A DNA stretch of 64,000 nucleotides from NCBI GenBank assembly GCA_963827685.1, contig CAWHBU010000002.1, forward strand, positions 1,120,001 to 1,184,000, written 5' to 3'. The notes under the pieces are model-generated. The model made no database searches. It saw only the letters and a program-made list of their open reading frames with translations, and had not been told where the DNA came from. The DNA is from an uncultured delta proteobacterium (GTDB lineage Bacteria; Desulfobacterota; BSN033; UBA1163). The position numbers and the translations under genes are program-made. Each line of letters opens with the position of its first letter. Positions within the stretch are counted from its first letter, which is position 1. This document shows, in pieces, positions 46,264 through 64,000 of the stretch.

Positions 46264-46279
46264 TGGCACATAATTTGCT
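46264..46279 (+). promoter_or_regulatory. sigma54 promoter of the glnA1-GOGAT operon
   Basis: TGGCACATAATTTGCT, consensus match. Confidence 0.9.
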
Positions 46280-47834: not shown

Positions 47835-49007
47835 ATGAGACTCACCAGGCCTTGGTTCGAAAAAGAAATTTCTGGTTGTTCCCTTACCGGGTTTATTAAT
47901 GAGGACGGGAAAAGAGTCAGCGGAGAGGCGATCATCCAATCCATTGCCTTGATGAACGAGCGTTCGAATGGTTTGGGAGGAGGCTTCGCAGGTTATGGGA
48001 TCTATCCTGAGATGAAAGACCTCTACGTTCTCCATCTCATGTACGATGACATTGCGGCCAAAGAAGAGACGGAGCGAATCTTAAATGAATCCCTCTTCAT
48101 CGAACTCCAGGAAAAGATTCCGACCCGGAAAACAAAAGGGATTCATCATCCCCCTCTTCTTGTGAGATATTTCGCCAAAGTGGATGAGAACAGACTTTTT
48201 GAAATGGAAATTTCAGAGGAAGATTACATCGTTCAAACCGTGATGATGATTAACAGCCGAATTAAGGGTGCCTATGTCTTCTCCAGTGGAAAGAACATGG
48301 GCACCTTTAAGGCGGTAGGCTTTCCTGACGATGTAGGGAAGTTTTACCGGTTAGAGGAATACCAGGGTTATACGTGGATTGCCCATGGCCGCTTCCCTAC
48401 CAATACTCCAGGATGGTGGGGAGGAGCTCACCCCTTCACCCTGCTCGATTTCGCAGTGGTCCACAATGGAGAGATCTCGTCTTACGGGATTAACAAACGC
48501 TATCTCGAGATGTTTGGATATCAGTGCACCCTGAGAACCGATACGGAGGTGATGGCTTATCTCTTCGACCTCCTCCTGAGAAAACATCGTCTTCCGATTG
48601 AGGTGGCTTGTATGGCCTTAGCTTCTCCCACATGGTCAGAGATCGATCATTATGACGGGAAAATGGAATTAGCTAAGGCTATCAGAACTGTCTACGGAAG
48701 TGCCTTGGTCAATGGCCCATTTGCGATCCTTTTGGGTCACAAGAAAGGATTGATCGGTCTTAACGATAGAATTAAGTTGAGGCCCCTCGTTGCTGGGAGG
48801 AAAGACAATACCCTTTATATCGCCAGTGAAGAAGCAGGAATTAGAGAAATTTGTCCCTCCCCGGATAAAGTGTGGTCTCCTAAGGCCGGCGAACCTATCA
48901 CGGGATGGTTGAAGGAGGATCATCAGAATGAATTTAAGTCATCTCGAATCCGAATTTCAGATCGAGAGAAATCCAGACCGGTGTATTCAGTGCCAGGTAT
49001 GTGTTAG
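47835..49007 (+). CDS. Stand-alone class II GATase subunit of a split glutamate synthase (GltB1-like)
   Basis: SGC near the N-terminus, ERSNGLGGG, AHGRFPTNT, AHPF, HNGE, TDTE, LRP. Confidence 0.88.
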   Translation: MRLTRPWFEKEISGCSLTGFINEDGKRVSGEAIIQSIALMNERSNGLGGGFAGYGIYPEMKDLYVLHLMYDDIAAKEETERILNESLFIELQEKIPTRKTKGIHHPPLLVRYFAKVDENRLFEMEISEEDYIVQTVMMINSRIKGAYVFSSGKNMGTFKAVGFPDDVGKFYRLEEYQGYTWIAHGRFPTNTPGWWGGAHPFTLLDFAVVHNGEISSYGINKRYLEMFGYQCTLRTDTEVMAYLFDLLLRKHRLPIEVACMALASPTWSEIDHYDGKMELAKAIRTVYGSALVNGPFAILLGHKKGLIGLNDRIKLRPLVAGRKDNTLYIASEEAGIREICPSPDKVWSPKAGEPITGWLKEDHQNEFKSSRIRISDREKSRPVYSVPGMC

Positions 49008-50442
49008 GCAGTGTGCCTTTGAAGGTCACTCCTACGATCCTGAAAATAGCCAGGTCAATTCTAACGAAGAAGTGTGCGTGGGCTGCCACCGTTGTGTCAC
49101 CCTTTGCCCTACCAATGCCCTGACCGTTCGACAGAATCCTCTTGAATTCAGGGAAAATGGCAACTGGACAGGTTGGGCCATCCGCAACATCATTAGGCAG
49201 GCAGAGACAGGCGGTGTGCTTCTGACCGGGATGGGGAATGACCGGCCCTACCCGATCTACTGGGACCATCTCCTCCTCAATGCCAGCCAGGTGACGAATC
49301 CCTCTATTGATCCCCTGAGAGAACCCATGGAACTCAGGACCTATCTGGGGAGAAAACCCGATAAATTAGAGGTGGATTTCAACGGGAGAAATTTTCAACT
49401 GAAGGAACCTCTTCCTCCCCAGTTAAAATTAGAGACACCGATTCTCTTTTCCGCCATGTCTTATGGCGCCATTAGTTATAATGCCTGTGAGTCTTTAGCC
49501 AGAGCTGCAGAGGCCCTGGGCATTTGTTGCAACACCGGTGAAGGCGGTCTTCATCCCAATCTCTATAAATACGGCAAGAATACCATCGTTCAAGTCGCTT
49601 CAGGTCGATTCGGTGTCCACAAAGATTATCTCGATACAGCGGCTGCCATTGAAATTAAGATCGGGCAGGGGGCGAAGCCAGGCATCGGAGGTCACCTCCC
49701 CGGGGAAAAAGTTGTAGAGGACATCTCGAAGACGAGAATGATTCCCAAGGGCACGGACGCCCTCTCCCCTGCCCCCCAGCACGATATCTATTCGATTGAA
49801 GACCTGCGGATGCTCATCTACGCCCTCAAAGAGGCAACCCGATATAGCAAACCGATCTCCGTGAAGATCGCCGCCGTCCATAATGCCGCGGCTATTGCCA
49901 GCGGCATGGTAAGGGCGGGGGCTGACATCATTGCGTTAGATGGATTCCGTGGAGGAACAGGAGCAGCCCCCACCGTGATCCGTGATAACGTGGGTATCCC
50001 GATTGAGTTTGCCTTGGCTGCTGTGGATCAGCGCCTCAGAGAAGAGGGAATCCGTCATCAGGCCTCCCTCTTAGTGGCTGGAGGATTCCGTAACAGCGCG
50101 GATATTTTCAAAGCCATTGCTTTAGGTGCGGATGCGGTTTACATCGGGACTGCAGCCCTCATCGCCATGGGCTGTCATGTCTGTCAAAAATGTTATACAG
50201 GCAAGTGCAATTGGGGAATTGCCACACAAGACCCGTATCTTGAGAAAAGACTGAATCCAGATATTGCAACAGAGAGGCTGATCAATCTGATCCACGCATG
50301 GAGCCATGAGATAAAGGAGATGTTGGGTGGGATGGGAATCAATGCGATTGAATCCCTTCGTGGGAACCGGTTGGCCTTACGAGGAATTGGACTCACGGAT
50401 ACGGAATTAGATATCCTCGGAGTCTTACCCGCAGGAAGGTAA
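48928..50442 (+). CDS. FMN-binding glutamate synthase subunit with N-terminal ferredoxin (GltB2-like)
   Basis: Two CxxCxxCxxxC, AMSYG, NTGEGG, QVASGRFG, GQGAKPGIGGHL, GGTGAAP, CHVCQKCYTGKC. Confidence 0.92.
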   Translation: MNLSHLESEFQIERNPDRCIQCQVCVRQCAFEGHSYDPENSQVNSNEEVCVGCHRCVTLCPTNALTVRQNPLEFRENGNWTGWAIRNIIRQAETGGVLLTGMGNDRPYPIYWDHLLLNASQVTNPSIDPLREPMELRTYLGRKPDKLEVDFNGRNFQLKEPLPPQLKLETPILFSAMSYGAISYNACESLARAAEALGICCNTGEGGLHPNLYKYGKNTIVQVASGRFGVHKDYLDTAAAIEIKIGQGAKPGIGGHLPGEKVVEDISKTRMIPKGTDALSPAPQHDIYSIEDLRMLIYALKEATRYSKPISVKIAAVHNAAAIASGMVRAGADIIALDGFRGGTGAAPTVIRDNVGIPIEFALAAVDQRLREEGIRHQASLLVAGGFRNSADIFKAIALGADAVYIGTAALIAMGCHVCQKCYTGKCNWGIATQDPYLEKRLNPDIATERLINLIHAWSHEIKEMLGGMGINAIESLRGNRLALRGIGLTDTELDILGVLPAGR

Positions 50443-50494
50443 ACCAAGCATTTTCGCCCTCTCTCTTGACGGGAGAGGGCGAGGGTGAGGGTGA

Positions 50495-50935
50495 ATGAAA
50501 CGAATCTTTGTCAAAGAAGAAGTCTGCATGGGATGCCGCCTCTGCGAAATCCATTGCCTTGTGGAGCATTCAAAGTCCAAAAATATTTTTAAGGCCTTCA
50601 AGGAGGAAAATCCTCGTGCCCTTCCTCGAATCTTCGTGGAGGAGAAAGGAACGCTTTCCTTTGGACTTCAATGTCGCCATTGTGAAGAACCCTTTTGCTT
50701 AGAAGCCTGTCTGAGTGGGGCTCTTTACCGGGATGAGAAAACAGGTGCCATTCTTCACAACAAGGACCAATGTGTGGGATGCTGGATGTGTGTGATGGTT
50801 TGTCCTTATGGTGCCATCCAAAGAGATTTGAACGGGAAGAAGGCTGCTTCAAAATGTGACCTTTGTGTGGGGAAGGAGACGCCGATTTGTGTGATGAAAT
50901 GCCCTAATCATGCATTGGAATTTCGGGAGTCCTGA
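50495..50935 (+). CDS. 4Fe-4S dicluster (CooF/HydN-like) protein
   Basis: CMGCRLC, CRHCEEPFC, CVGCWMC...CP, KCDLC. Confidence 0.9.
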   Translation: MKRIFVKEEVCMGCRLCEIHCLVEHSKSKNIFKAFKEENPRALPRIFVEEKGTLSFGLQCRHCEEPFCLEACLSGALYRDEKTGAILHNKDQCVGCWMCVMVCPYGAIQRDLNGKKAASKCDLCVGKETPICVMKCPNHALEFRES

Positions 50936-50937
50936 GA

Positions 50938-52203
50938 ATGAGGATCGTCATCATAGGGAATTCAGCAGCGGCCGTGGGGGCCATTGAAGCGGTTCGAAAA
51001 GTGGATCGTTCTACCCTCATCACGGTCATCTCTGATGAACCCCATTCCGTTTATTCCCGACCTCTTATCTCCTATTTTTTAGCTGGAGAAATCAAACAGG
51101 AGCAGCTCTATTACCGGCCAAAAGACTTCTATGAAAAGAACCGTGTTCGAACCCTCCTGGGAAGGCATGTGGTCAAGGCTACTTTTGGAGAAAAGGCGGT
51201 TCAATTAAATAACGGAGAAAAGATTTCTTATGATCGTCTTCTCATTTCGACAGGGGGGAAACCTTTTCTCCCCAAAATGGAAGGACTCGACAAACCTGGA
51301 GTCCATACATTTACCACACTGGAGGATGCCAAGAAAATTTTGTCAGTTTTAAAAGATGTTCAAAAGGCGGTCGTCATCGGTGGAGGGTTGATCGGGCTGA
51401 AGGCAGCCGAAGCCTTAAAGAAGAGAAACATAGAAGTGACTGTTGTCGAGTTGGCTGATCATATCCTCAGTCTAACGATGGATGAAACCGCTTCTTCCAT
51501 CCTTGAAAAGGCATTGAAGAAAGAAGGAGTCCATCTGATCACTTCCAATACCGTTGAGGCGATTTTGGGCGATGGCCGTGTGGAATCGGTTCGTCTTGCC
51601 GATGGGAAATTGCTCAAGACGCAGCTAGTTGTCGTGGCGATCGGCGTCATCCCAAATGTGGATCCCTTCAGAGGGACCTCCCTTCGTATCGAAAAAGGAA
51701 TCCTCGTCGATGAACGGATGGAAACGAACATCCCGGATGTCTATGCGGCCGGCGATGTGACCCAAGCTTACGATAAAATCCTCAAAAGCTATCGCACGAT
51801 TCCGATATGGCCCAATGCCTATAGTCAAGGGAAAATAGCTGGATACCAAATGACGGGAAATAAGAAATATCAATACGGAGGAAGTTTCATGATGAATTCC
51901 ATCGAAGTGGCTCATATCCCGACCGTCTCCATCGGTCTTACTGACCCTCCTCCTGATGATGGTTACCAGGTTCTTAAAAAATTTGATCGGGGTTCCGGTG
52001 TTTACCGGAAGGTGATCTTGAGAGGAGATGTAATCGTCGGCGCCATCTTTACAGGACAGATTGACCGGGCTGGGATTATGACAGGGTTATTGAGAGATGG
52101 GGTCAAGGTGAGAGGATTTAAGAAAGAATTGGTGAGTGAACAGTTTGGTTTTGTCTCCCTCCCTAAAGCCTTAAGGAAGGAGAGACTGCTGAATTTGAAA
52201 TGA
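50938..52203 (+). CDS. FAD-dependent NAD(P)H oxidoreductase (NirB-N-like)
   Basis: IIGNSAA, YSRP, IGGGLIG, VYAAGD. Confidence 0.88.
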   Translation: MRIVIIGNSAAAVGAIEAVRKVDRSTLITVISDEPHSVYSRPLISYFLAGEIKQEQLYYRPKDFYEKNRVRTLLGRHVVKATFGEKAVQLNNGEKISYDRLLISTGGKPFLPKMEGLDKPGVHTFTTLEDAKKILSVLKDVQKAVVIGGGLIGLKAAEALKKRNIEVTVVELADHILSLTMDETASSILEKALKKEGVHLITSNTVEAILGDGRVESVRLADGKLLKTQLVVVAIGVIPNVDPFRGTSLRIEKGILVDERMETNIPDVYAAGDVTQAYDKILKSYRTIPIWPNAYSQGKIAGYQMTGNKKYQYGGSFMMNSIEVAHIPTVSIGLTDPPPDDGYQVLKKFDRGSGVYRKVILRGDVIVGAIFTGQIDRAGIMTGLLRDGVKVRGFKKELVSEQFGFVSLPKALRKERLLNLK

Positions 52204-52940
52204 AAAGGATGGAAATTAACGCCAAAAATCTTTACTACCGGAAACTGAATGAACAAGTCCATCAAGCCATCGGACAAGGCGCAAGAGACATCTTCCTTCG
52301 AAATGTGAATGGACAACGCTACATCGGTGATGGGATTCGGGGGAATATAAAGATCAAAATCGAAGGAGTTCCAGGAAACGACCTGGCCGCCTTTATGGAT
52401 GGTCCGACCATCATCACTCAATCAAGCGCTCAAGACGCGGTTGCCAACACGATGAATGCCGGGAAAATTGTCGTTCATGGAGATGCGGGAGATGTGCTTG
52501 GATACGGGATGAGAGGAGGTAAACTTTTTGTTAGAGGGGATGTCGGGTACCGTGTCGGCATCCACATGAAATCTTTTAAGAAACAGATTCCCGTTATTAT
52601 TATCGGAGGAACAGCAAGAGATTTTCTCGGAGAATATCAGGCAGGGGGCGTAATCATTCTGCTTGGTTTGGAAAGGAACGGAAGGCCTCTTGCGGGGAAT
52701 TACATTGGCACCGGGATGCATGGAGGTGTAATCTATATCCGGGGGAAAGTGGACCCTTTTCAACTGGGAAAGGAGGTCTCCATTTCTCCCGTTGATGGAA
52801 CGGATGATGAACGATTAAGACTTTACCTGAAGGAATACTGTGAAGATTTCAGTCTTTCGTTAGACGAGGTGATGGGGCAAAAGTTCATCAAACTTCTACC
52901 CACCCATTTAAGGCCCTATGGGAAAATTTATGCTTATTAG
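52200..52940 (+). CDS. GXGXG-domain glutamate synthase subunit (GltB3-like)
   Basis: GQRYIG, GVPGNDLA, GYGMRGG, GTGMHGG. Confidence 0.88.
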   Translation: MKRMEINAKNLYYRKLNEQVHQAIGQGARDIFLRNVNGQRYIGDGIRGNIKIKIEGVPGNDLAAFMDGPTIITQSSAQDAVANTMNAGKIVVHGDAGDVLGYGMRGGKLFVRGDVGYRVGIHMKSFKKQIPVIIIGGTARDFLGEYQAGGVIILLGLERNGRPLAGNYIGTGMHGGVIYIRGKVDPFQLGKEVSISPVDGTDDERLRLYLKEYCEDFSLSLDEVMGQKFIKLLPTHLRPYGKIYAY

Positions 52941-54066: not shown

Positions 54067-55392
54067 ATGGATAAAGAAAAACAAAATGTGTTGAAGTTGG
54101 CGAAGGAGAATGATGTCAAATTTATTCGACTCTGGTTCACGGACATTCTGGGGTTTTTAAAAGGGTTTGCCATCACCATCGATGAACTGGAGGGTGCTCT
54201 TGAAGAAGGGATGGGGTTTGATGGCTCCTCCATTCAAGGCTATGCCCGCATCGATGAGAGTGATATGATCGCCAAACCCGATCCCAAAACTTTTCAGATC
54301 GTCCCGTGGAGGCCTAAAGAGAATGCTGTTGCCAGGATGTTTGCAGATATCTATGAGCCTGATGGAACCCCTTACAAGGGAGATCCGCGATGGGCGTTAA
54401 AACGGACTCTTAAGAAGGCTCAAGACCTTGGCTACACCCTTTACGTCGGTCCTGAGCTGGAGTACTTCTATTTCAAGGGGAATGATGGGACAGAGATACT
54501 CGACAAAGGAGGTTATTTTGACCTTACCCCCCTGGATGTGGCGACCGAGCTTCGGCGGGAGACCATCTTAACGCTGGAAGCCATGGGAATTCATGTGGAA
54601 TATAGCCATCATGAGGTGGCCCCGAGCCAGCACGAAATTGACCTCCGTTACACAGATGCCCTGACCATGGCAGATAATGCGATGACCTATCGGCTCGTTG
54701 TGAAGGAAATTGCATTGAAACACGGCGTCTATGCGACCTTCATGCCCAAACCCATCTTTGGCCAGAATGGAAGTGGCATGCACACGCACCAATCTCTTTT
54801 TAAGGGCAATAAGAATGCCTTCTTCGATCCAAAAGATGAATTTCATCTCTCCAAGATTGCCAAGTCTTATATGGCCGGGGTTTTGAAACACTCCAAGGAA
54901 ATTACTTCCATCACTTCTCAGTGGGTGAACTCTTACAAGAGGCTTGTCCCGGGCTACGAAGCGCCCGTCTATATCTCCTGGGCGCGCAGGAATCGGTCAG
55001 CCCTCGTTCGTGTTCCTATGTATAAACCGGGAAAGGAAAAAGCCACACGAATGGAATATCGGTCCCCAGACCCAGCCTGCAATCCATACCTGACATTTGC
55101 TGTAATGTTGGCAGCTGGGTTAAAGGGGATTGAAAAGGGTTATGAACTTTCTCCTCCCGTTGAAGAAGACATCTTCGAAATGTCTGAGGCGGCGAGGAAG
55201 AAACACGGGATCGACTCTCTTCCAGGAAATTTATTGGAAGCCATACAACTCACAGAAAAAAGTGAGCTCGTAAAGGAAACATTGGGAGATCATATCTTCC
55301 AAAAATTTATTGAGAACAAAAAGATCGAATGGGATCAATACCGAACCCATGTCTCCCATTTCGAATTAGAAAAATATCTCCCTATTCTATAA
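54067..55392 (+). CDS. glnA: Glutamine synthetase type I-alpha
   Basis: FDGSSIQG, GPELEY, SHHEVAP, NGSGMH; lacks the beta-type insertion; EEDIF in place of the adenylylated Tyr. Confidence 0.93.
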   Translation: MDKEKQNVLKLAKENDVKFIRLWFTDILGFLKGFAITIDELEGALEEGMGFDGSSIQGYARIDESDMIAKPDPKTFQIVPWRPKENAVARMFADIYEPDGTPYKGDPRWALKRTLKKAQDLGYTLYVGPELEYFYFKGNDGTEILDKGGYFDLTPLDVATELRRETILTLEAMGIHVEYSHHEVAPSQHEIDLRYTDALTMADNAMTYRLVVKEIALKHGVYATFMPKPIFGQNGSGMHTHQSLFKGNKNAFFDPKDEFHLSKIAKSYMAGVLKHSKEITSITSQWVNSYKRLVPGYEAPVYISWARRNRSALVRVPMYKPGKEKATRMEYRSPDPACNPYLTFAVMLAAGLKGIEKGYELSPPVEEDIFEMSEAARKKHGIDSLPGNLLEAIQLTEKSELVKETLGDHIFQKFIENKKIEWDQYRTHVSHFELEKYLPIL

Positions 55393-55394
55393 GA

Positions 55395-55431
55395 TTCAAC
55401 CCGCAGATTCTTAATGAATCTGGGGGTTGAA
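55395..55431 (+). terminator. Hairpin after glnA2
   Basis: TTCAACCC-g-CAGATTC-ttaat-GAATCTG-g-GGGTTGAA. Confidence 0.5.
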
Positions 55432-55583
55432 TCTATTATAATTAGGTAATATGTTGAAGGTCACATCCTGGACGTTGAGAGTGTGACCTTCAATGATATT
55501 GTGCTCTGATTACGAAGCTGTCTTCTGGTAGGGGTCATAATCCAGAAAATCATTCTAACGATGAAACGAGGTTAATCACCAAA

Positions 55584-58500
55584 GTGAACGAGAAGAAACC
55601 TAAATTAACCTGGATTAAATCTCTTGAAGCGTTTTTGAGCCGGAATCCCGGCCTGAAGATGATCGATGATCCAGAGAAACTTGAATATTACCGCAATGAC
55701 CTGAACGTTGATCTTCCTCCCATGATTCGCGACCTCATGCTGAAGAGCTTGCCTGATATCATTTTCCAGCCCACCACTGAAGAACACCTGCTGGAGATTT
55801 TTGCGTTTGCCCGAGATCATAAAATCCCAGTAACCATAAGGGGCGCTGGAACTTGGGGATATGGCGGAGCAGTACCTACCCGCGGAGGAATACTCATCGA
55901 TCTCGGGTTAATGGACACGATTGAGGTCAATCCTGAAACCCTGCAGTTGACAGTGGGTCCAGGTGCACGTTTTCTCGACATACACCGGGAACTCGAACGC
56001 AAAGGCCTAACCCTTCTCAGCATGACTTCTGGGAAGGGCGGAACCCTCATAGGCTGGATGGCCACAGGAGGCATGGGATTTGGCACCTTTCGCCATGGCC
56101 CGGTGCGAAATCAGCTGATCTCCATACGGGTAATCACACCCGAGGGCAAGGCACGAGATCTGAAGTCTGACGACCCGGAGGTCGGTTACTTCCTTTCCAC
56201 TGAAGGGCAGATGGGAATTATTGTGAAAGCCACACTCAAGGTTGGCCGACGACCATCACAATGGTATCCTTTCGTTCTCCCCTTTGAAAGGACGTCTGCT
56301 GCCTATGCCTTTGCGAAGCAGGTTTCCCATCACCTCTTGCTCAAGCCTCATGACGTGATCGTTTACCACACCAAATTGGTGTGCGTCCTCAAGGAACAAT
56401 CAAATGGAAAAATGTCGATTGAGGATAAGAACGTGGTCCTGGTCGCATTTGCCGATGAGGGGCAGGCCCGTGGGTTCAAGGCTTTTCTGAATGATCACGG
56501 CATTCAGCCAGCTGATGAAGCATCAGCCCATTACCTCTGGGAAGAGCGGTTCCTCCCCATGTCCATCAAGCATCTTGGGCCGTCTCTTCTGGCCACGGAG
56601 GTGCTTCTCCCTCTGGATCAAGTCGCTGCCTACTTTGAAAAAATCAGCCAATGGGGCAAACGCTTAGGTGTCACTTTTTACCCATCCTCTCATCTCATCA
56701 GTCAAGACCAAGTCCTCTTTCTCGCCATGGTCGCCTCTGACTATCGGAAGGCTATTTTCTACGTAGACCTCATGCTCGTTCCGATGATGGTCAGGCTGGC
56801 TGTCCAGCTTTATCGTGGAAAGCCTTATGGACTGGGGATCTGGAATACACCTTTCTTACGCGACCTCCACCCCAAGGAAGAGTTGAAACAGCTGCGCCAA
56901 TACAAGAAGGTTGTAGATCCTGCCGGAATCCTCAACCCGGGAAAATTCTTTTCTGTCTCAGGGAGACTGGGCCCTCTTCAAAAGATACTCTTCCACCCAA
57001 ACCTCTTTAACCTTGAGATTTCTTCAACACAGTGGCTCCTCTTCAAACTCTTCTCCATCATCCCGGAGAAGACGCTTCGAAAGCAAATCCCCGTTGCTCC
57101 GGAAGGGCTTGAAGGGATTGCAAACGATGTCCTGTCCTGTGCCCAGTGCGGAAACTGCGTGTCCCGGTGTCCTGTTTACCGCGCCACTGGAAATGAAATT
57201 CTCACAGCGAGAGGAAAACTGCTCACCGTGAAGCGAGCCCTGGAAGCGAAAAAGGTCGAGTTGTCGAAGCTCCTGCCCCTTTACTTCTGTCTCCACTGCG
57301 GACGCTGCGATGAAGAATGCCAGGTCAATCTAAAACATCGCGAACTTTACGACCACTTGGAGAACTTCCTATCCCGAACCATCGATTTTCCAATTCAACA
57401 AATAACGGACTTCGTTCAGGAGGTGGAGAGAAGCCCGGAGTTTTACCGTTTTCTCGATGTGATCCGAACGGGTTTCGACCAGAAGATTCACGAACAGCGA
57501 CAGACCTTCCCGAGGTACCGTGTTCTCATTGATGAAGAATACTGTCTCCATTGCGGCACCTGTGTCGATGCCTGTATGTATAGCGTGCGGAAGCGTGACG
57601 AGTCAGATCCCCGTAAGGTTGTGATTGCTGACGAAGCACTCTGTCGCGGCTGTGGGGCGTGTTTGGAGCGGTGTCCACAAATTGCAGCCGGACTGGCAGC
57701 CACTTCCGTTGAACTGCATCCAGACTATCTCAGCTTGGATGACCCGTACTGGAAAAGCGAAGTGATTGGCCGCATCGACCTGGAGGCGACGACAGGCAAG
57801 ATTCCTGTCTCCGGCACGGGCCAGGGAGACCCGCATCGTGGCTCCGGGAACGACGGCATTCGTTTCGGTCACTTTCATATCGTGGGACCTGCGCAGAATC
57901 TCCTCTATGAAAGCTCCGCAGACGCCATCGCCGTCCAACTCGGGAAGCGGCCGAAATATTTGACGTTCAACGGACACAGGATCGAGACCCCTCCCCCCGC
58001 CTGATCGGGCTGAAAACGCCCCTCCTCCTCGATGTGATGCCGATGGATGGGGGAGAAACCTTATTGGACTCCATGTTTGAGGCCGCCCGAACCATGGGGA
58101 CCCGTCTCACCCTCCGGTTAGAAGAAGTTGAGAAATACGGGTTGAAGATCGGGGATCGACTGCATTCTCTGATTCTTCGGTTGACTGCAAACGACGTTAG
58201 GAACCTGGCCGCGGGAAAGAAGTGGCCTGAAGTCTTTCAGAATCATTCTTGCGATTCGATAGAAATCGAACTGGACGACACGGTTCTGGCACGAATCGAT
58301 GAATTGAAACGTCTCTTCGCTGGATCCACTGTTCTCTCCGCCGTCATAAAGATCAAAAAGGACGATGTGGATTCGGAGCTCAGGCCAGCGCCGATATTCC
58401 AGCAAAAGCTGGAATCCTTATTCCGATCGCCTTTTGATATTTTGTGCCTCACGTCAGATTACGACTCAGACAAAGGATACTACCCCACCACGGATGCAGT

Positions 58501-61500
58501 GCCCGCGGTTCATCGATTTCTGGTCGAGCAGAAACTGCGCCACCGGTTTTCAATCCTTGCTGCTGGAGGGATCCGCTCTGCGGCTGATTCGCAAAAGACG
58601 ATTCAGCGAGGCGCCAACGGAATAAAGATCGATTGGCCCGTGCTGTTGACCGCTGATCCAATGGCACGGCAGAGATTCCTCAGAGGCGAACAGATCCAGA
58701 TTTCATTTGATACACCGGCATTGGCAAAGCGAATCACCAACCTCATCCGGGTATGGAATGTTCAGATCATTGAAGTTCTTGGCGCCTCTGGGTTTAAGGA
58801 GATCAGAAAAACCGTGGGCGAAGAGAATCGGCTGCTCATTTTTGACGACCTTGAGGAACGGGTTTACGACATCTTTAAGAACCAAGGTCGCCTGGACCGA
58901 AACAGCCAATGCAACCCAGCCCGTATACAGAGAGAGGGAGATGGCTTTGGATGGCGGTACAGTCAATTGACGAATCTTATTCAGCCCACGCATCTCCCGC
59001 ACCGATTCTACAACTGTGACCTGAAACCCTCGTGCTATCGCATCTTCGATCGCGATTATGTCTGGCCGGCCTCCCTCATTGCATCCGTTGGCCGCATGGC
59101 CAGTGGAGACCGGGAGGCGCTTTTGCTCAGCCATACAGAGGAGCGAGGCAATCTCGGAGATGGCTTCGATTTTATCCAGGTCCAGTTTCAGCAGAACCCT
59201 GATACTATCCCAGAGGGAATGCTGGATGAAGTATCAACCGCTCTTCAGATCACCCCTCAATTGCGACTGAAGGCACCCTTTATCGGAGCCGGAATGTCTG
59301 TTGGGTCCATTGGCCCGGGGACCTGGCGTGCCCGAGTCTTGGCAACCCGTGCCCTCAGGACCCAGATGGATACTGGCGAAGGTGGATACCCGACTATTTT
59401 TATCCTTGATTCGAAGTGGAACCCTCTGGACTTAACGGATCAACAAGTGGCTCTTTTAGGCCGGTTCATGGAAGAAAGGAAGCTCATCCCCGTAGAGGAG
59501 TTGATCAAAAAGGTCCGCCAGGAGGTGGACGAATCCCTTGAATATCAGGGATTACTGGATGCGCTCGGAAAATATCCGGCTTCCATGCCGATCCAGTACG
59601 TTCCCATTGTCACGCCCGAAGACGAGCCTTATGTCTCCACTCAACTCAAGACAGGTCTATTTGGAGTGACCAAGGAGAGTATCCGACGTGCCCGCCGCGT
59701 GGTGATCGCTTACAGCCAGGGAGCTAAACAAGGTGTCGGTGGTCACTTGCTGGGAAGAAAAGTCTTTGGTCTGGTCTCGAGGCTGCGGGGAGTCGCCGAA
59801 GGGGTCAGCCTTATCTCCCCCTTCCCTTTTCATAATTGCTATTCGATTGAAGATGTGAAGGCATTCATCGACGCTGTCCGGATGATCAACCGTCATACGA
59901 CCATCTGCATCAAGGTTTCGCCATCTCCTGATATTGAATTCATCGTTTCCGGCCTCGCCCGCATCGCCAAGGACAACCAGATGGTCGTCGAAGTCTGGTT
60001 GGATGGACCTCGCGGAGGCACAGGCGCAGCTCCGGACATCATCAAGGGCCAGATGGGAATGCACATGGAGTACGCGATCCCCCTTTGCCATGAGAAATTG
60101 ATGGACGACGGACTGAGAGATTACGTTGTTTTCATGGGAAGCGGCGGATTTCGCACATGGGGAGACGTGATCAAGGGAATCGCCTTGGGACTTGATGGTG
60201 TCGTCCTGGGTACCGCAGACCTTGTGGCCATCGGTTGTGTTCGGGACCGCAACTGCGAGTCAGGGTGCCGAAGTGGTATCTCCACCATTGAACCGAGAAT
60301 GCAGCTGTTACGCGATGTTGAAGTAAATACCCAACAGATCATCAACTTCCGTTCAATTCTCCAAGCTCAGACGATTAGAGCCCTTGCAGCTCTGGGTATG
60401 AAAGACATCAGAGAACTACGGGGCCATTATGATTGCATCCAATGGCCACTTCTCGAAGAGAGAGTCCGAGAGCGTCGCCGTCGTAGGGCTGAGATTTCAT
60501 TGGCTCGCCCTTTCGGCAGGCAAGGAGAAGCCTCACAGCAAATAGCGGCAAATCCGATGCCCGCTCCCTCGGATTGTGGTGTCGCTGCCATTGTCTCCAA
60601 CCATTTCATCCCGAGTCACGTAATGGACTTGATGCTTGAACGTATGGGTAACCGCGGCATGGATGGGGTTGGAATTTGGAAAGGAGGCTGTTACCCCCTT
60701 CATATGGATCAGTATGCCCTGCAGGTCTTAGTCAAGGGCATACTTCAATCCGACGTCGAGCAGGAATATACGTTCAAAGAACCAGATCTCAATCTAGTAG
60801 AAATTCGTCGGCGAGCCAGGCAGGAGGTCTTGGCCGAGCGCCGCCATATCATGCAAGAAATCTTTGACCACTATTTCACAGGGGTTGAACTGGATGGTTT
60901 CAACGGCGACCTGGAGAAGTGCCGTTTCCCGTATCGGCTCGATCAGGAAGGTCACGAACAGGATTTCCGACTCTTCGGCGAGAAGGATCCGGGCGATGTG
61001 TTCCGATTCTTTGTACGGGTGCGACGTGAAGAGTTGTATCGCTTTGTGGAGAATGACCTGCTCAAGGATTCCATCTGGCCACCCCGTCAGATGCGCTATC
61101 GAGATCTGACCGTTGAGAATTACGGAACGAACATAGATTTTTTGCAGGAGGCCGAGGACGAGTACATCTACCGGCTTTCCCGCAAGATCACACGGGAGAA
61201 CTACGCAGAGGCTCCACAAAAGAAGGCGGCGGTTATGTCGTGTGGTAAGAACTCCGGCTGCTGGAAGAGCGATGGTCGGGAAATTCCATGGGAGCTTCCA
61301 GAAGCGCCTGTAAATGTTATCCATCGGCGGTTAGCCACTGGTTCTGTGGTGGACCAGATGAATGCCCACCCCTTTGCTGAGCTTCACACAGCCTTGACCC
61401 ACAATGGGGAGACGACGAATTATCGCACGATGCTGAATCGAGTCTCACAGTTCAACCTGACGCCTTTGGCTCAAACCGATACAGCCGTGGCGTCTCTTAA

Positions 61501-63175
61501 ACTTCACCTGCTCAGCCAATACCTCCATTATCCCTTCGACGCTCTTGTTGAATCTTTTTCACCCACGACAGGGTGGAAGCTGACCCAGTTGCCTCCTGAG
61601 ATAAAGGACCGCTTCGAGCATGTGCAGGAGGTAGAGTTGGAAAGTGCTCCAGATGGCCCGTACCAATACCTTTGCGGTCGGATCGACCCCTATCGCAGGG
61701 TCATCGAGCGGTTGGACATTATCGACCCGTCCTTGCTTCGGCCCAACGTGGCAATGCTCTATGACGATGGAGATAATTTCGTGAGCATCATCTGTTCCGA
61801 GAAACAAGGGAGTGATGCAGGGTTGCAGGAGCTTCATCGTCTGGGGATCGTGCGAAGCACCCACCCACCTTTGACCTTCACAGTCAACACAGGCATGGTG
61901 AGCAGGGTCTTCTACGACGAGAAGGGAAAAATCACAAGCCACGAGGTATTAGACAAATTCGGCAAACGGCTGGATATTCCCCACGGGACGTATCCTTCTG
62001 CAGAGTCACTCCCTTCTGTGGCCGGCGGCATAGGAATCCAGAAGATATCCGATCCTTCCGTCTTTGTGCGAGATCGGCTATCCCGTTGGGGGTTTGGCGA
62101 ATTCAAAACGGCTTTAGAGCAGATAACAAGGAATTCTTCAATGGTGCAAGCAGTCAAGGAGCTGACCCGAATCCACGACTATCTGCCGGGTTGGGAAACC
62201 GGAGATAAAGATAGAGGGACTCTTCAACATATCCTCGAAGACCATATCAACTCGGCCTTGGATCGCGTGAACGGTGAAAATGGAATCGTTCGCGTTAGCT
62301 TGGCCAATGCTGGAAAGCTCAAAAAACCTGAAGGGACAGACCAGATCTTAGTAATTGACAGCCGGGGATTTCGGCCCGAAGGCATCGATCCGTTGAAGGT
62401 GCTGAGCTGTTTTCTCGATCATGCCCATCGCATGGGATGGAGAAAATTCATCGTCTACAGAGCGGAGGGCCAACGGGGTATTGGCATGGGTATGGGGTCC
62501 GGCCTAACCCTGGACACCACCGTAGACGTTTATGGAAGTCCGGGTGAATACTGTGGTGCATTCAACATGGGAACCTTGGTGCGCGTTCATGGCCATGCTC
62601 AGAACTTCACTGGAATGGTCATGCACTCTGGAACACTTGAGATCCATGGTGACGTGGGAAAGGTAACAGGATACTCTGCAAAGGGAGGAACATTCAATAT
62701 CCTTGGCAACGTCGTAGACCGGGGATGGGTCTGCGCGGTGAGCGACCCCCGTGGCCCGGGGCTTGAGGTCAACATCGTGGGGACTGCGTACGAGCACCTC
62801 TGCCAGGCCTTAATGGGTGGATCCGTAATCATGCTTGGTCTCTTTCGGGGGTATGACGGAATGCTCCGTCAAATGGATTCCCCTTACAGTGGCGCTAAAA
62901 TCTTGGCAGGTGCCTCTGCCGGAGAAGTAGTCTTCTATGACCCTAAAAAGAGATTGGAAGAAGGACAGTACAAGAGTTGTGCCATACAACCTATCAATGA
63001 TAAGAAGTGGGAAGAGATCGTGGGCCGCCTTATGAAACTGGAAAGTATCTTTGGCCTAGGTTTCTCTCGAGAAAACAGCCATCTCACGGCTCATATCGAC
63101 GGACGACTGAAAACCATCACGCCCGAGAGTTTTCGATGGATATTACCAAAGGGTGAGTTGGAGGGTTATCACTAG
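55584..63175 (+). CDS. Giant FAD-oxidase/ferredoxin/glutamate-synthase-like fusion (about 2530 aa), split by a 1-nt frameshift
   Basis: RGAGTWGYGG...DPAGILNPGK, four CxxCxxCxxxC, two FMN-barrel-like regions, SDCGVAA GATase, GXGXG tail; adding one C to 57993-57998 gives ETPPPRLIGLKTPLL. Confidence 0.8.
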
Positions 63176-63391: not shown

Positions 63392-64000
63392 TTACCCGGA
63401 GGGATCGTTAACGAGAGGCAGAGTTGAGGAGCTGGAGTTAAGTATTTTCTTTAATTTTTTCTCTATGGTTTTTCTTAGCATAAAAGGGTTGAGAGATTCA
63501 AGCAACATGGAGAGGTCCTGTTTGATATCAGGAGAGACATGGGGTGAATCGATGACACGTTGGTAAGGGGTTTTAGGAGAGTCATGGTGTTTGATGGTTT
63601 TGGAGCCGACTCTTTCTTTGGAGAGGAGTTTCACGGAGGGAGAGAAGAAGTTATGAAAGAGCTTCCATTCATGGGCATAGAGGTTATTGAGGAGAGGGAC
63701 GACTTTGGGATCGTCGAGGCGTTGGTAGCCGAGCCATTGGCGGACATGGGTCCAGTTTTTCTGCTCGACATGGGCATTATCGTCTTTATGATAGGCGCGG
63801 CTTCGAGTGAACTGAACAGGTTTATCCCTTTTGGTAAAGTGTCTGAGGAGGTGATAATTGAGAAACTCGCCTCCATTGTCACAATCGAAGCCGAGCAAGG
63901 GGAAAGGCAAAGCCTTTTCGATCTGTTTCATTTGTTCGAGGGTATCGGTTTCTCCTTTGCCCCAGACGGCTCGTTGTTCAGTCCAACCGGTTGCAATATC
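63392..64000 (-). CDS. Integrase-core (rve/DDE) transposase, 5'-truncated by the window edge
   Basis: Frame open to 64000 (DIATGWTE...), GFDCDNGGEF, RSRAYHKDDNAHVEQKN, KTPYQR. Confidence 0.85.
   Translation of the reverse strand, partial: DIATGWTEQRAVWGKGETDTLEQMKQIEKALPFPLLGFDCDNGGEFLNYHLLRHFTKRDKPVQFTRSRAYHKDDNAHVEQKNWTHVRQWLGYQRLDDPKVVPLLNNLYAHEWKLFHNFFSPSVKLLSKERVGSKTIKHHDSPKTPYQRVIDSPHVSPDIKQDLSMLLESLNPFMLRKTIEKKLKKILNSSSSTLPLVNDPSG

What the first reader, a model, noticed from the sequence alone, without database searches (positions are those of the whole stretch)
55584..63175. Giant permuted glutamate-synthase-like protein fused to an FAD-oxidase electron-input module
Seen: adding one C at 57993-57998 gives an ORF of about 2530 aa with the order FAD-binding oxidase (GlcD/Dld-like), four CxxCxxCxxxC motifs, degenerate FMN barrel, intact-looking FMN barrel (MSVG, DTGEGG, SQGAKQGVGGHL, GGTGAAP, CVRDRNCESGC), class II GATase, GXGXG. 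The junction aligns with this window's GltB2 (LGRKPDKL...PLPPQLKLETPIL versus LGKRPKYL...TPPPRLIGLKTPLL), which supports a single gene. Established: canonical GltB is GATase-central-FMN-GXGXG and takes electrons from GltD/NAD(P)H or ferredoxin. Inference: a self-contained GOGAT drawing electrons through its own flavin domain from an unknown donor, or running oxidatively. The GlcD EHG motif is replaced by PYGLG, so the donor may not be lactate or glycolate. Best candidate for an undescribed system in this window.
Basis: partly seen in the sequence, partly recalled or inferred. Interest (0 to 1): 0.9.

Follow-up and report, generated by a model that had tools for sequence, protein, structure and literature searches.

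The report
Single-chain glutamate synthase with own flavin input
The two reading frames are one 2530-residue gene, broken here by a missing base, for an undescribed type of glutamate synthase that carries its own flavin and iron-sulfur electron-input module and appears to be the only glutamate synthase in most genomes of this bacterial family.

Summary
ORFs 55584..58004 and 58034..63175 join into a 2530-aa frame if one base is added at the C6 run 57993-57998. Contigs from three metagenome runs that bridge the site, and 21 of 21 aligned relatives, all carry that extra base. In relatives, 44 of 51 full-length loci are one open frame.

The domain order is FAD oxidase (D-lactate-dehydrogenase fold), four 4Fe-4S motifs, a degenerate Glu_synthase barrel, an intact FMN barrel, a class II amidotransferase, then a GXGXG helix.

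The fusion is conserved in Thermodesulfobacteriota MAGs and, at 32-45% identity, in Calditrichia, KSB1 and other phyla. A permuted version also exists.

The core (barrel, FMN barrel, GATase-GXGXG) also occurs as a widespread three-gene operon without the FAD module.

In the window's family, 31 of 46 genomes with any Glu_synthase domain have only the giant. Seven have only the archaeal-type split GOGAT. A type I glutamine synthetase sits upstream in 34 of 45 close loci.

Best reading: a self-contained GOGAT. The electron donor is unknown, because the lactate/glycolate catalytic Glu-His is replaced by Pro-Tyr. The catalytic Cys is internal, so cleavage is implied but not shown. I found no publication on it. 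It is a new variant of a known kind.

The parts
54067..55392 (+). Type I glutamine synthetase (441 aa) directly upstream; conserved neighbour of the giant gene in the close clade
   Evidence: Pfam Gln-synt_C and Gln-synt_N. NCBIfam TIGR00653 GlnA scores 546.7 bits against a cut-off of 429.15. An ortholog at 86% identity or more lies upstream in 34 of 45 close-clade loci.
55584..58004 (+). Piece 1 of the giant gene as assembled (806 aa): FAD module plus four 4Fe-4S motifs plus conserved linker
55752..56945 (+). VAO/PCMH-type flavoprotein: FAD_binding_4 (aa 57-192) and cap domain FAD-oxidase_C (aa 302-454), with a D-lactate-dehydrogenase fold. Pro-Tyr stands where D-LDH has Glu-His.
   Evidence: Pfam. 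Foldseek top matches are mLDHD 8jd* (TM 0.75 on target) and LctD 7qh2_C. The HMMER alignment puts Y415 opposite the His of HGIG. PYGxGxWN is invariant in 23 sequences of two clades.
57129..57677 (+). Two ferredoxin-like dicluster domains (Fer4_8 aa 516-582, Fer4_10 aa 647-698). All 16 Cys of the four motifs are invariant.
57993..57998 (+). C6 run where the assembly lacks one base; site of the frame break
   Evidence: Contigs of runs X1 and X3 carry an extra C and that of X2 an extra G behind 57992. 21 of 21 aligned relatives have one more base here.
58001..63175 (+). Piece 2 of the giant gene; the frame continues from the C-run. The listed ORF starts at 58034 (1713 aa).
58034..59083 (+). First, degenerate Glu_synthase-type barrel (piece-2 aa about 1-350). 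The N-terminal FMN-domain motif is lost, while the C-terminal half (GGIRSAAD...) is conserved. Likely counterpart of the GltB central domain.
   Evidence: PF01645 positions 254-336 match at window 58481-58726. GltB2 358-484 aligns to P0002 967-1085. Invariant columns are listed. The central-domain analogy is inference from PMC8097209.
59102..60400 (+). Intact FMN/synthase barrel (piece-2 aa 357-789) with a three-Cys cluster motif C-x5-C-x3-C
   Evidence: Pfam Glu_synthase 3e-76. Aligned to GltB structures 7mfm, 2vdc, 1ea0 and 1llw.
60575..62023 (+). Class II (Ntn) glutamine amidotransferase domain that starts at an internal Cys (piece-2 aa 848, codon 60575-60577), with a family-specific insertion of about 150 aa
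   Evidence: Invariant C-G-V, N-R-G, H-x-R-x-x-T-G, H-N-G and T-D-T in 30 sequences. In the model the Cys opens the first strand and the residues before it are disordered. Fold matches to GltS, GlmS, PurF and ASNS.
62501..63010 (+). GXGXG beta-helix domain (piece-2 aa 1490-1659)
   Evidence: Pfam PF01493; Foldseek match to FwdC 5t61_O; sequence match to FwdC 5t5i_C

Best explanation
The two ORFs are one gene of about 2530 codons. This assembly has lost one base in a C-run; the natural gene is intact. It encodes a single-chain, self-contained glutamate synthase (glutamine:2-oxoglutarate amidotransferase).

Proposed mechanism:
- The class II glutaminase domain hydrolyses glutamine.
- Ammonia passes to the intact FMN barrel, probably through a tunnel lined by that barrel and by the degenerate first barrel, which takes the place of the GltB central domain.
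- 2-oxoglutarate is aminated to 2-iminoglutarate and reduced by FMN to glutamate.
- Electrons reach FMN through the barrel's three-Cys cluster from a chain of four [4Fe-4S] clusters.
- That chain is loaded by the N-terminal FAD domain, which has a D-lactate-dehydrogenase fold and most likely oxidises a small organic substrate that is not lactate or glycolate.

Because the catalytic Cys is internal, the chain is probably cut in front of it, as GltB and PurF propeptides are (recalled). That would leave two associated chains.

Shown: single gene, domain map, folds, conserved catalytic residues, conserved fusion, distribution, glnA neighbourhood. Inferred: activity, tunnel, electron path and direction, donor, cleavage.
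For: Single gene:
- The extra base is present in contigs of 3 of the 3 runs that bridge the site and in 21 of 21 aligned relatives.
- 44 of 51 full-length loci are one frame.
- 103 of 120 listed homologs carry the FAD and Glu_synthase domains on one chain.

Glutaminase:
- Cys, Arg, Asn-Gly and Asp motifs are invariant in 30 sequences from three subgroups.
- The model has pLDDT 87.2 and pTM 0.89.
- The top fold match is Fd-GOGAT 1ofe_A, E 6.9e-10.

Synthase:
- PF01645 scores 3e-76.
- In the alignment to GltB structures, the QGAK motif, the Arg of the LR motif, GGTGA(A/S)P, the FMN phosphate motif and three cluster Cys are kept.
- The GGH variant is shared with this window's own GltB2.

Electron wire:
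- All 16 Cys are invariant across the two clades.
- The FAD domain has a D-LDH fold.
- The paralog at G000:C5 joins the same kind of FAD domain to Fer4 and CCG domains, an arrangement in which flavin feeds Fe-S.

Role:
- In family f1, 31 of the 46 genomes with a PF01645 hit at E<=1e-30 have only the giant. Seven have only the archaeal-type split GOGAT and lack the giant. Two have only the split form of the new core. Six have the giant plus another system.
- Genomes G001 and G003 have no other Glu_synthase gene.
- A GlnA gene lies upstream in 34 of 45 close loci, and CarB lies downstream.
- The same modules recur in a different order in P0134.
Against: - No biochemical or expression data exist, and every holder is a MAG.
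- The catalytic Cys lies about 1665 residues into the chain. An Ntn glutaminase needs it at a free N-terminus, and cleavage is not shown.
- The NCBIfam GltB equivalog scores 141.7 bits against a cut-off of 1047.
- Pro-Tyr replaces the Glu-His of D-LDH/GlcD, so the donor cannot be named and the FAD domain might only relay electrons.
- All four genomes examined also hold glutamate dehydrogenase genes, so a GOGAT is not strictly required.
- The distant clade has no glnA neighbour: 0 of 30 loci.
- The Fe-S part of the N-terminal model is unreliable, with pLDDT below 50 for aa 617-787, so cofactor distances could not be checked.
- The split relatives work without any FAD module (1 of 80 loci, and that one on the opposite strand), so the core can take electrons by another route.
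Confidence: 0.52

Rival explanations
1. The core is a GOGAT, but the FAD domain oxidises no small substrate. It is a redox relay that takes electrons from NAD(P)H (as MurB does), from ferredoxin, or from a partner protein, and passes them to the Fe-S chain.
For: The Glu-His of 2-hydroxy-acid dehydrogenases is absent. NCBIfam also gives weak hits to the GlcE subunit and to MurB. Split relatives run without this module and often sit beside MvhD: 32 of 45 loci with enough upstream DNA.
Against: The cap domain, which forms the substrate pocket in this fold, is retained. It carries motifs that are invariant between clades only about 30% identical: H370, D386 and PYGxGxWN. The same motif is present in the further form P0139. 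No nucleotide-binding domain was found.
Confidence: 0.25
2. It is not a glutamate synthase. The glutaminase and FMN barrel catalyse a related amide-nitrogen transfer or reductive amination on another 2-oxo acid or amine, for example something like N-methylglutamate synthase. The name and the comparison are recalled, not tested.
For: The score is far below the GltB equivalog cut-off. Syn-numbered Glu975 and Gln978 are changed to Val and His (numbering recalled). The GATase region is rare: 175 representatives at E<=1e-3 among 1.84 billion.
Against: The QGAK motif and the Arg that binds 2-oxoglutarate in GltS are kept. The GGH variant also occurs in the window's ordinary GltB2. Within the family, the giant and the ordinary GOGAT mostly replace each other. 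The upstream neighbour is a true GlnA by curated cut-off, not a gamma-glutamyl-amine synthetase.
Confidence: 0.13
3. In this organism the gene is truly broken. It is either a pseudogene or two functional genes made by a real one-base deletion.
For: The assembly reads C6 and a TGA at 58002-58004. A GTG at 58034 could restart translation. Seven of 51 relatives are also broken.
Against: The nearly identical contig of run X1 (1 mismatch in 720 bases) has C7. Contigs of X3 and X2 also have the extra base. There are no other stops in either piece, and the pieces are 88% and 93% identical to P0002. Breaks in the seven relatives lie at other places; L025, for example, has no gap here. Five of the seven carry names of one MAG series, which suggests assembly error.
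Confidence: 0.06
4. The enzyme runs oxidatively. Glutamate is oxidised at the FMN barrel, and the electrons leave through the Fe-S chain to reduce a substrate at the FAD domain.
For: The chain of cofactors is in principle reversible, and the donor side is unknown.
Against: A glutaminase has no role in that direction, yet all its catalytic residues are invariant in 30 sequences. The glnA neighbourhood and the replacement pattern point to assimilation.
Confidence: 0.04

Closest known systems
Glutamate synthase large subunit: bacterial NADPH-GltB (PDB 1ea0, 2vdc, 7mfm) and ferredoxin-GOGAT (1ofe, 1llw)
   Same: Class II glutaminase with the CGV start motif, an FMN barrel with a three-Cys cluster, a second truncated barrel and a GXGXG helix. 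The best fold match of the C-terminal half is 1ofe_A. The FMN barrel aligns at E about 1e-37.
   Different: The glutaminase lies after the FMN barrel, not first. There is no GltD partner and no free-ferredoxin dependence implied; instead a fused FAD domain plus four 4Fe-4S motifs sits at the N-terminus. The catalytic Cys is internal. The score is 141.7 bits against the 1047-bit equivalog cut-off. Cluster spacing is C-x5-C-x3-C rather than C-x5-C-x4-C.
Archaeal-type split GOGAT (this window 47835-52940; Geobacter GSU1235-1239 as listed in PMC2725144)
   Same: The ferredoxin domain followed by a Glu_synthase barrel is colinear with the giant's Fer4_10, linker and first barrel. It shares the GGH variant of the substrate motif. 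It lies in the same nitrogen-assimilation neighbourhood.
   Different: It consists of separate small genes with a pyridine-nucleotide-disulphide oxidoreductase as the likely electron input. It has one barrel, not two, and no FAD-oxidase module. In the family it mostly alternates with the giant.
Uncharacterised split operon Fer4-barrel1 / Fer4-FMN barrel / GATase-GXGXG (loci L080-L159, e.g. L083 6750-12613)
   Same: It has the same parts in the same order as residues about 640-2530 of the giant, at 24-50% identity. The GATase has the same insertion and a leader before the Cys. GlnA lies upstream in 10 of 41 loci with enough DNA. Two genomes of the window's own genus hold this form instead of the giant.
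   Different: It is three genes, with no FAD module (1 of 80 loci, on the opposite strand). An MvhD-like gene, sometimes with MetVF, lies upstream. No curated NCBIfam family matches barrel1, and the other two proteins get only hits far below cut-off.
FAD-linked 2-hydroxy-acid dehydrogenases with Fe-S partners: D-lactate dehydrogenase, GlcD-GlcF, LctD, and fused forms such as YdiJ
   Same: Two-domain VAO/PCMH fold, TM 0.75 to mLDHD. It is followed by a GlcF-like Fer4_8 dicluster domain.
   Different: The Glu-His motif is replaced by Pro-Tyr. The CCG domains of GlcF/HdrD are absent, and the Fe-S chain leads into a GOGAT core instead. TIGR00387 glcD scores 85.4 bits against a cut-off of 567.9.

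Membership tests
Glutamate synthase large subunit (GltB / GltS alpha) | Class II (Ntn) glutaminase domain with catalytic Cys, Arg, Asn-Gly and Asp | tested here: met
   These residues are invariant in 30 aligned sequences. The fold matches GltS, GlmS and PurF.
Glutamate synthase large subunit (GltB / GltS alpha) | Catalytic Cys is residue 1 of the mature chain | not testable with these tools
   The Cys is at piece-2 aa 848, about residue 1665 of the whole chain. Split relatives also have 30-45 aa leaders. Cleavage would need protein data.
Glutamate synthase large subunit (GltB / GltS alpha) | FMN/synthase barrel (PF01645) with 2-oxoglutarate-binding Lys and Arg and the FMN motifs | tested here: met
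   PF01645 scores 257 bits. The alignment to 7mfm and 2vdc keeps QGAK, the Arg, GGTGAxP and GGxxTxxD. Residue roles are recalled.
Glutamate synthase large subunit (GltB / GltS alpha) | Three-Cys motif of the 3Fe-4S cluster in the FMN barrel | tested here: met
   The three Cys align with those of GltB, with one residue less between the second and third. The cluster type is not known.
Glutamate synthase large subunit (GltB / GltS alpha) | C-terminal GXGXG beta-helix | tested here: met
   PF01493 scores 41.6 bits against a cut-off of 32.5; fold match to FwdC.
Glutamate synthase large subunit (GltB / GltS alpha) | Domain order GATase - central - FMN - GXGXG | tested here: not met
   The order here is FAD - Fe-S - barrel1 - FMN - GATase - GXGXG.
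Glutamate synthase large subunit (GltB / GltS alpha) | Whole-protein score over the curated equivalog cut-off (NF008730, 1047 bits) | tested here: not met
   141.7 bits, covering the FMN barrel only.
GlcD / D-lactate dehydrogenase type FAD-linked 2-hydroxy-acid dehydrogenases | FAD_binding_4 plus FAD-oxidase_C two-domain fold | tested here: met
   Pfam scores 106.3 and 33.1 bits, both over their cut-offs. Foldseek gives E 2.4e-22 to mLDHD.
GlcD / D-lactate dehydrogenase type FAD-linked 2-hydroxy-acid dehydrogenases | Glu-His of the (G)EHG motif (metal ligand and catalytic His; roles recalled) | tested here: not met
   Pro-Tyr aligns with it and is invariant in 23 sequences. The two upstream metal His were not mapped.
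GlcD / D-lactate dehydrogenase type FAD-linked 2-hydroxy-acid dehydrogenases | Score over the curated cut-off of TIGR00387 glcD (567.9 bits) | tested here: not met
   85.4 bits.
GlcF / HdrD type Fe-S subunit | Dicluster domain followed by CCG (Cys-rich) domains | tested here: not met
   Fer4_8 is present, but there is no CCG hit. The paralog at G000:C5 does carry CCG-type motifs.
Uncharacterised split GOGAT-like operon (L080-L159) | Fer4-barrel1, FMN barrel and GATase-GXGXG in this order, with the family-specific GATase insertion | tested here: met
   All segments match in the same order in 66 of 80 loci; the FMN barrel matches in 69 of 80. In the giant they are fused and extended by the FAD module.

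The most novel reading that the evidence does not exclude
A fourth class of glutamate synthase. It would be a self-cleaving polyprotein that cuts itself in front of an internal Cys to give two tightly bound chains. It would take its reducing power directly from an organic substrate oxidised at its own flavin domain, so that nitrogen assimilation in these anaerobes does not draw on the NAD(P)H or ferredoxin pools. The conserved half of the first barrel might bind a second flavin.
Probability: 0.2. Interest if true: 0.8.

Novelty: new variant of a known kind. Interest (0 to 1): 0.62.

Why it matters
Only NAD(P)H-dependent, ferredoxin-dependent and poorly studied archaeal-type glutamate synthases are described; the review PMC8097209 (passages read) lists no other. 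This protein would add a class whose electron input is built in and of a different kind.

It appears to be the sole GOGAT in most genomes of a family of uncultured Thermodesulfobacteriota. It also occurs in Calditrichia, KSB1 and other sediment and peat phyla. Metabolic models of these organisms therefore currently lack a correctly assigned ammonium-assimilation step.

The related split operon has at least 586 relatives in metagenomes and is equally unassigned.

The internal catalytic Cys offers a clean test case for how Ntn amidotransferases are matured. The Fe-S wire from a VAO-fold flavoprotein to an FMN enzyme is a new wiring pattern.

Tried and rejected
Programmed frameshift: rejected. 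Public contigs and all relatives carry the extra base in DNA.

Run X5 gave no contig across the C-run; its depth is 0 in 57933-57973. Only X1, X2 and X3 count. X1 may be the window's own source sample, so it is not independent evidence, though it still shows C7 in a short-read contig.

Expression: four RNA runs held small shares of words, 0.06-0.11. No claim about expression is made.

Donor identity:
- I considered D-2-hydroxyglutarate. The NCBIfam YdiJ model hit only the C5 paralog weakly, 71.8 bits against 1350, and was not among the 25 families shown for piece 1. There is no support.
- PDB 6v42, named only 'FAD/FMN-containing dehydrogenase', is the best full-length sequence match. I could not find what it does (searches found 0 papers).
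- The ESM Atlas gave only generic FAD-oxidase cluster names.

MvhD as a clue to the donor of the split system: not used. In L092 it sits with MetV-MetF, to which it may belong.

Cofactor distances: the N-terminal AF2 model is poor over the Fe-S region (mean pLDDT 63.4; below 50 for aa 617-787), so none were measured.

Promoter and terminator scans around the gene were at chance level.

Complex prediction was not used, because the question is one chain.

Literature: eight searches over the held library found no paper on a FAD-oxidase-GOGAT fusion or on the split operon. The library covers CC-licensed PMC and bioRxiv; subscription journals are mostly absent. Supplements were closed and were not consulted. 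Genome papers of these MAGs may list the gene in tables that I could not see.

Full report
WHAT IS IN THE SEQUENCE. Two long ORFs lie head to tail on the + strand. They are 55584..58004 (806 aa) and 58034..63175 (1713 aa), in different frames. The first ends at a TGA just after a run of six C at 57993-57998. The second frame is already open upstream of its GTG and reads ...PRLIGLKTPLL. Adding one base in the run joins the two into 805+1+11+1713 = 2530 codons.

DOMAIN MAP. Pfam places the following in piece 1:
- FAD_binding_4 at aa 57-192
- FAD-oxidase_C at aa 302-454
- Fer4_8 at aa 516-582
- Fer4_10 at aa 647-698

In piece 2 it places:
- Glu_synthase at aa 357-789, with a second, weaker stretch
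- GATase_6 at aa 1080-1152, only just over its cut-off
- GXGXG at aa 1490-1659

IS IT ONE GENE? Yes.
- Homologs. A search with piece 2 found 278 relatives. Of the 120 listed, 103 carry FAD_binding_4 and Glu_synthase on one chain of about 2500-2570 aa, the closest at 93% identity (P0002, P0003). The other 17 are shorter chains that I did not examine.
- Genome loci. In the species-representative genome collection, 75 loci encode relatives. Of the 51 that cover the whole protein, 44 are one uninterrupted frame. These frames are about 2520-2580 aa in the close clade and 2850-2970 aa in a distant clade. Seven are broken, at other places.
- The junction in DNA. All 21 relatives that align at DNA level have one more base than the window.
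- Public contigs. Contigs of three metagenome runs bridge the site. X1 (720 bases, one mismatch) and X3 carry an extra C. X2 carries an extra G, the Pro-Ala-Pro version seen in P0002. None shows the window's C6.
- Own genome. The window's genome is a 14-contig, 5.2-Mb assembly, 94.5% complete, with one copy of the gene.

A missing base in a homopolymer is therefore most likely an assembly error. A strain-private lesion cannot be fully excluded.

THE PARTS.

Glutaminase and GXGXG.
- I aligned the last 883 residues with 12 other giants from two clades and 17 stand-alone relatives.
- The hallmark residues of Ntn class II amidotransferases are invariant in all 30: Cys-Gly-Val, Asn-Arg-Gly, His-x-Arg-x-x-Thr-Gly, His-Asn-Gly and Thr-Asp-Thr.
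- The AlphaFold model from this alignment is confident (pLDDT 87.2, pTM 0.89). The 16 residues before the Cys are disordered, and the Cys opens the first strand.
- Its best PDB match is ferredoxin-GOGAT 1ofe_A, then GlmS, PurF and asparagine synthetase. FwdC matches the beta-helix.
- By sequence this region is rare: 175 representatives at E<=1e-3 among 1.84 billion proteins.

FMN barrel.
- It aligns to solved GltB chains at about 1e-37.
- It keeps the QGAK motif, the Arg that binds 2-oxoglutarate in GltS (role and numbering recalled), the FMN-binding motifs and three cluster Cys. The spacing between the second and third Cys is one residue shorter.
- The Gln-to-His change in GGQ is shared with this window's own GltB2, so it is a trait of the archaeal-type enzymes and not an oddity.

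First barrel.
- It is a second copy of the same fold. Its C-terminal half aligns to GltB2 358-484, and the ferredoxin domain plus linker before it aligns colinearly to GltB2 10-198.
- Its N-terminal FMN-domain motif is lost.
- The review PMC8097209 (passages read) describes the GltB central domain as a truncated barrel, perhaps derived from the FMN barrel, that lines the ammonia tunnel. I take the first barrel to be its counterpart. That is inference.

Fe-S motifs. All 16 Cys of the four motifs are invariant between clades that share only about 30% identity in this part.

FAD domain.
- It has the D-lactate dehydrogenase fold (TM 0.75 to mLDHD, also LctD and alkyl-DHAP synthase). The model is good only for residues 1-450.
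- Where D-LDH has Glu-His, the giant has Pro-Tyr. PYGxGxWN is invariant and recurs in a further form, P0139.

RELATIVES AND ARCHITECTURE.
- The fused form occurs in MAGs labelled Thermodesulfobacteriota or Syntrophaceae at 67-96% identity. At 32-45% identity it occurs in MAGs labelled Calditrichia, KSB1/Zhuqueibacterota, Krumholzibacteriia, Vulcanimicrobiota, Gemmatimonadetes, Brocadiia and others. No holder is an isolate.
- A 3152-aa representative (P0134) has the same modules in another order: GATase, GXGXG, FAD oxidase, then the FMN barrel.
- Stand-alone GATase-GXGXG proteins of about 880 aa also exist.
- A metagenome scan with one of these found at least 586 relatives. Of 80 loci fetched, 66 have a homolog of the first barrel and 69 a homolog of the FMN barrel directly upstream, in the same order as in the giant. 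The remaining loci are cut short upstream.
- Only 1 of the 80 has any FAD-module match, and that one is downstream on the other strand.
- In L083 the operon reads: GS, MvhD-like protein, Fer4 + degenerate barrel, Fer4 + FMN barrel, GATase-GXGXG.
- No curated NCBIfam family covers these proteins.
- The giant is thus this split core fused into one chain, with a FAD oxidase and a GlcF-like dicluster domain added.
- In every stand-alone form examined, the Cys follows a leader of about 30-45 residues ending in Gly-Gly. A pro-sequence before the Cys is therefore a family trait.

WHAT IT DOES.

Neighbourhood.
- The upstream gene is a type I glutamine synthetase by curated cut-off.
- An ortholog at 86% identity or more precedes the giant gene in 34 of 45 close-clade loci and in 0 of 30 distant-clade loci.
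- CarB follows about 2 kb downstream in the close clade.
- The window also holds GlnD, a second GS and an archaeal-type split GOGAT.

Distribution in the window's taxonomic family (55 genomes, of which 46 have a Glu_synthase domain at E<=1e-30):
- 31 have the giant as their only one.
- 7 have only the archaeal-type split GOGAT and no giant.
- 2, in the window's own genus, have only the split form of the new core.
- 6 have the giant plus another system.
(I sorted the rows by frame length and score.)

Complete genomes. A complete Calditrichales chromosome (G001) and the genome of L019 (G003) likewise have no other Glu_synthase gene.

This replacement pattern is what one expects if the giant is the cell's GOGAT.

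Against necessity: all four genomes examined also have glutamate dehydrogenase genes.

MECHANISM AND OPEN POINTS.
- I propose glutamine hydrolysis at the Ntn site, ammonia transfer to the FMN barrel, and reductive amination of 2-oxoglutarate.
- Electrons would be delivered from the FAD domain through four 4Fe-4S clusters and the barrel's own cluster.
- The direction from FAD to Fe-S is the native one in the GlcD-GlcF type. The genome's paralog on contig C5 is an example; it too lacks Glu-His.
- The donor is unknown. The conserved cap domain suggests a real substrate pocket. The loss of the Glu-His argues against lactate, glycolate or 2-hydroxyglutarate. A pure relay role is the main rival.
- The internal Cys implies cleavage before it, as for the propeptides of GltB and PurF (recalled). 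This is not shown.

NOVELTY.
- Databases name these proteins only 'glutamate synthase-related protein' or 'FAD-binding protein'.
- Eight full-text searches found no paper on the fusion or on the split operon. The one hit for the database name concerns the ordinary split GOGAT of Geobacter (PMC2725144, passages read).
- I rate the finding a new variant of a known kind: a glutamate synthase with permuted domains and a new, built-in electron-input module.

Noticed in passing
window 46264-46279 (+): A perfect sigma-54 -24/-12 consensus (TGGCAC-N5-TTGCT) overlaps the listed ATG of the 518-aa GS ORF (46263). The real GS start is probably further downstream, and the glnA plus split-GOGAT operon is probably RpoN-dependent, as reported for Geobacter. 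There are 5 matches with at most 1 mismatch in the window against 1.33 expected.
   Followed up: partly
window 47835-52940 (+): Archaeal-type split GOGAT operon: GATase (390 aa), Fer4 + FMN barrel (504 aa), Pyr_redox_2 + Rubredoxin_C oxidoreductase (421 aa) and GXGXG (246 aa). The first two ORFs overlap by 80 bases as listed. It has the same make-up as Geobacter GSU1235-1239.
   Followed up: partly
L080-L159, e.g. L083 2883-12613 and L092 3998-12619: A widespread unassigned operon: Fer4 + degenerate barrel, Fer4 + FMN barrel, GATase-GXGXG. An MvhD-like gene lies upstream in 32 of 45 loci with enough DNA. In L092, MetV and MetF lie between MvhD and the barrels. In L083, a further 550-aa partial Glu_synthase barrel lies before GS.
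   Followed up: partly
P0134 (3152 aa): A permuted relative with GATase (Cys at residue 79, after a leader that begins like a signal peptide), GXGXG, FAD oxidase, a weak Fer4 match and the FMN barrel, in that order.
   Followed up: partly
G000:C5:333998-335713 (-), locus L003 160-3240: A 1026-aa paralog of the FAD module fused to a dicluster domain, CCG-type motifs and a Met-rich tail. It also lacks the Glu-His motif, so it may belong to the same unassigned flavoprotein subfamily.
   Followed up: partly
L025, L027, L038, L040, L044, L049, L062: Seven of 51 full-length relatives are frame-broken at various places. Five of them carry isolate names of one MAG series (MFD...), which suggests assembly errors rather than decay.
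   Followed up: no
window 55393-55583: The 190-base spacer between glnA and the giant gene holds two inverted repeats, seen by eye. The simple terminator scan did not call them, and a promoter-like site at 55475-55502 is at chance level.
   Followed up: no
C-terminus of the giant, window 63152-63172, and relatives: The chain ends in a conserved tail: GELEGYH in the close clade and GGLKGYESH in the distant clade. The tail is absent from the stand-alone forms. Its role is unknown.
   Followed up: no
window 63392-63931 (-): A 179-aa ORF downstream of the giant gene has no Pfam family.
   Followed up: no
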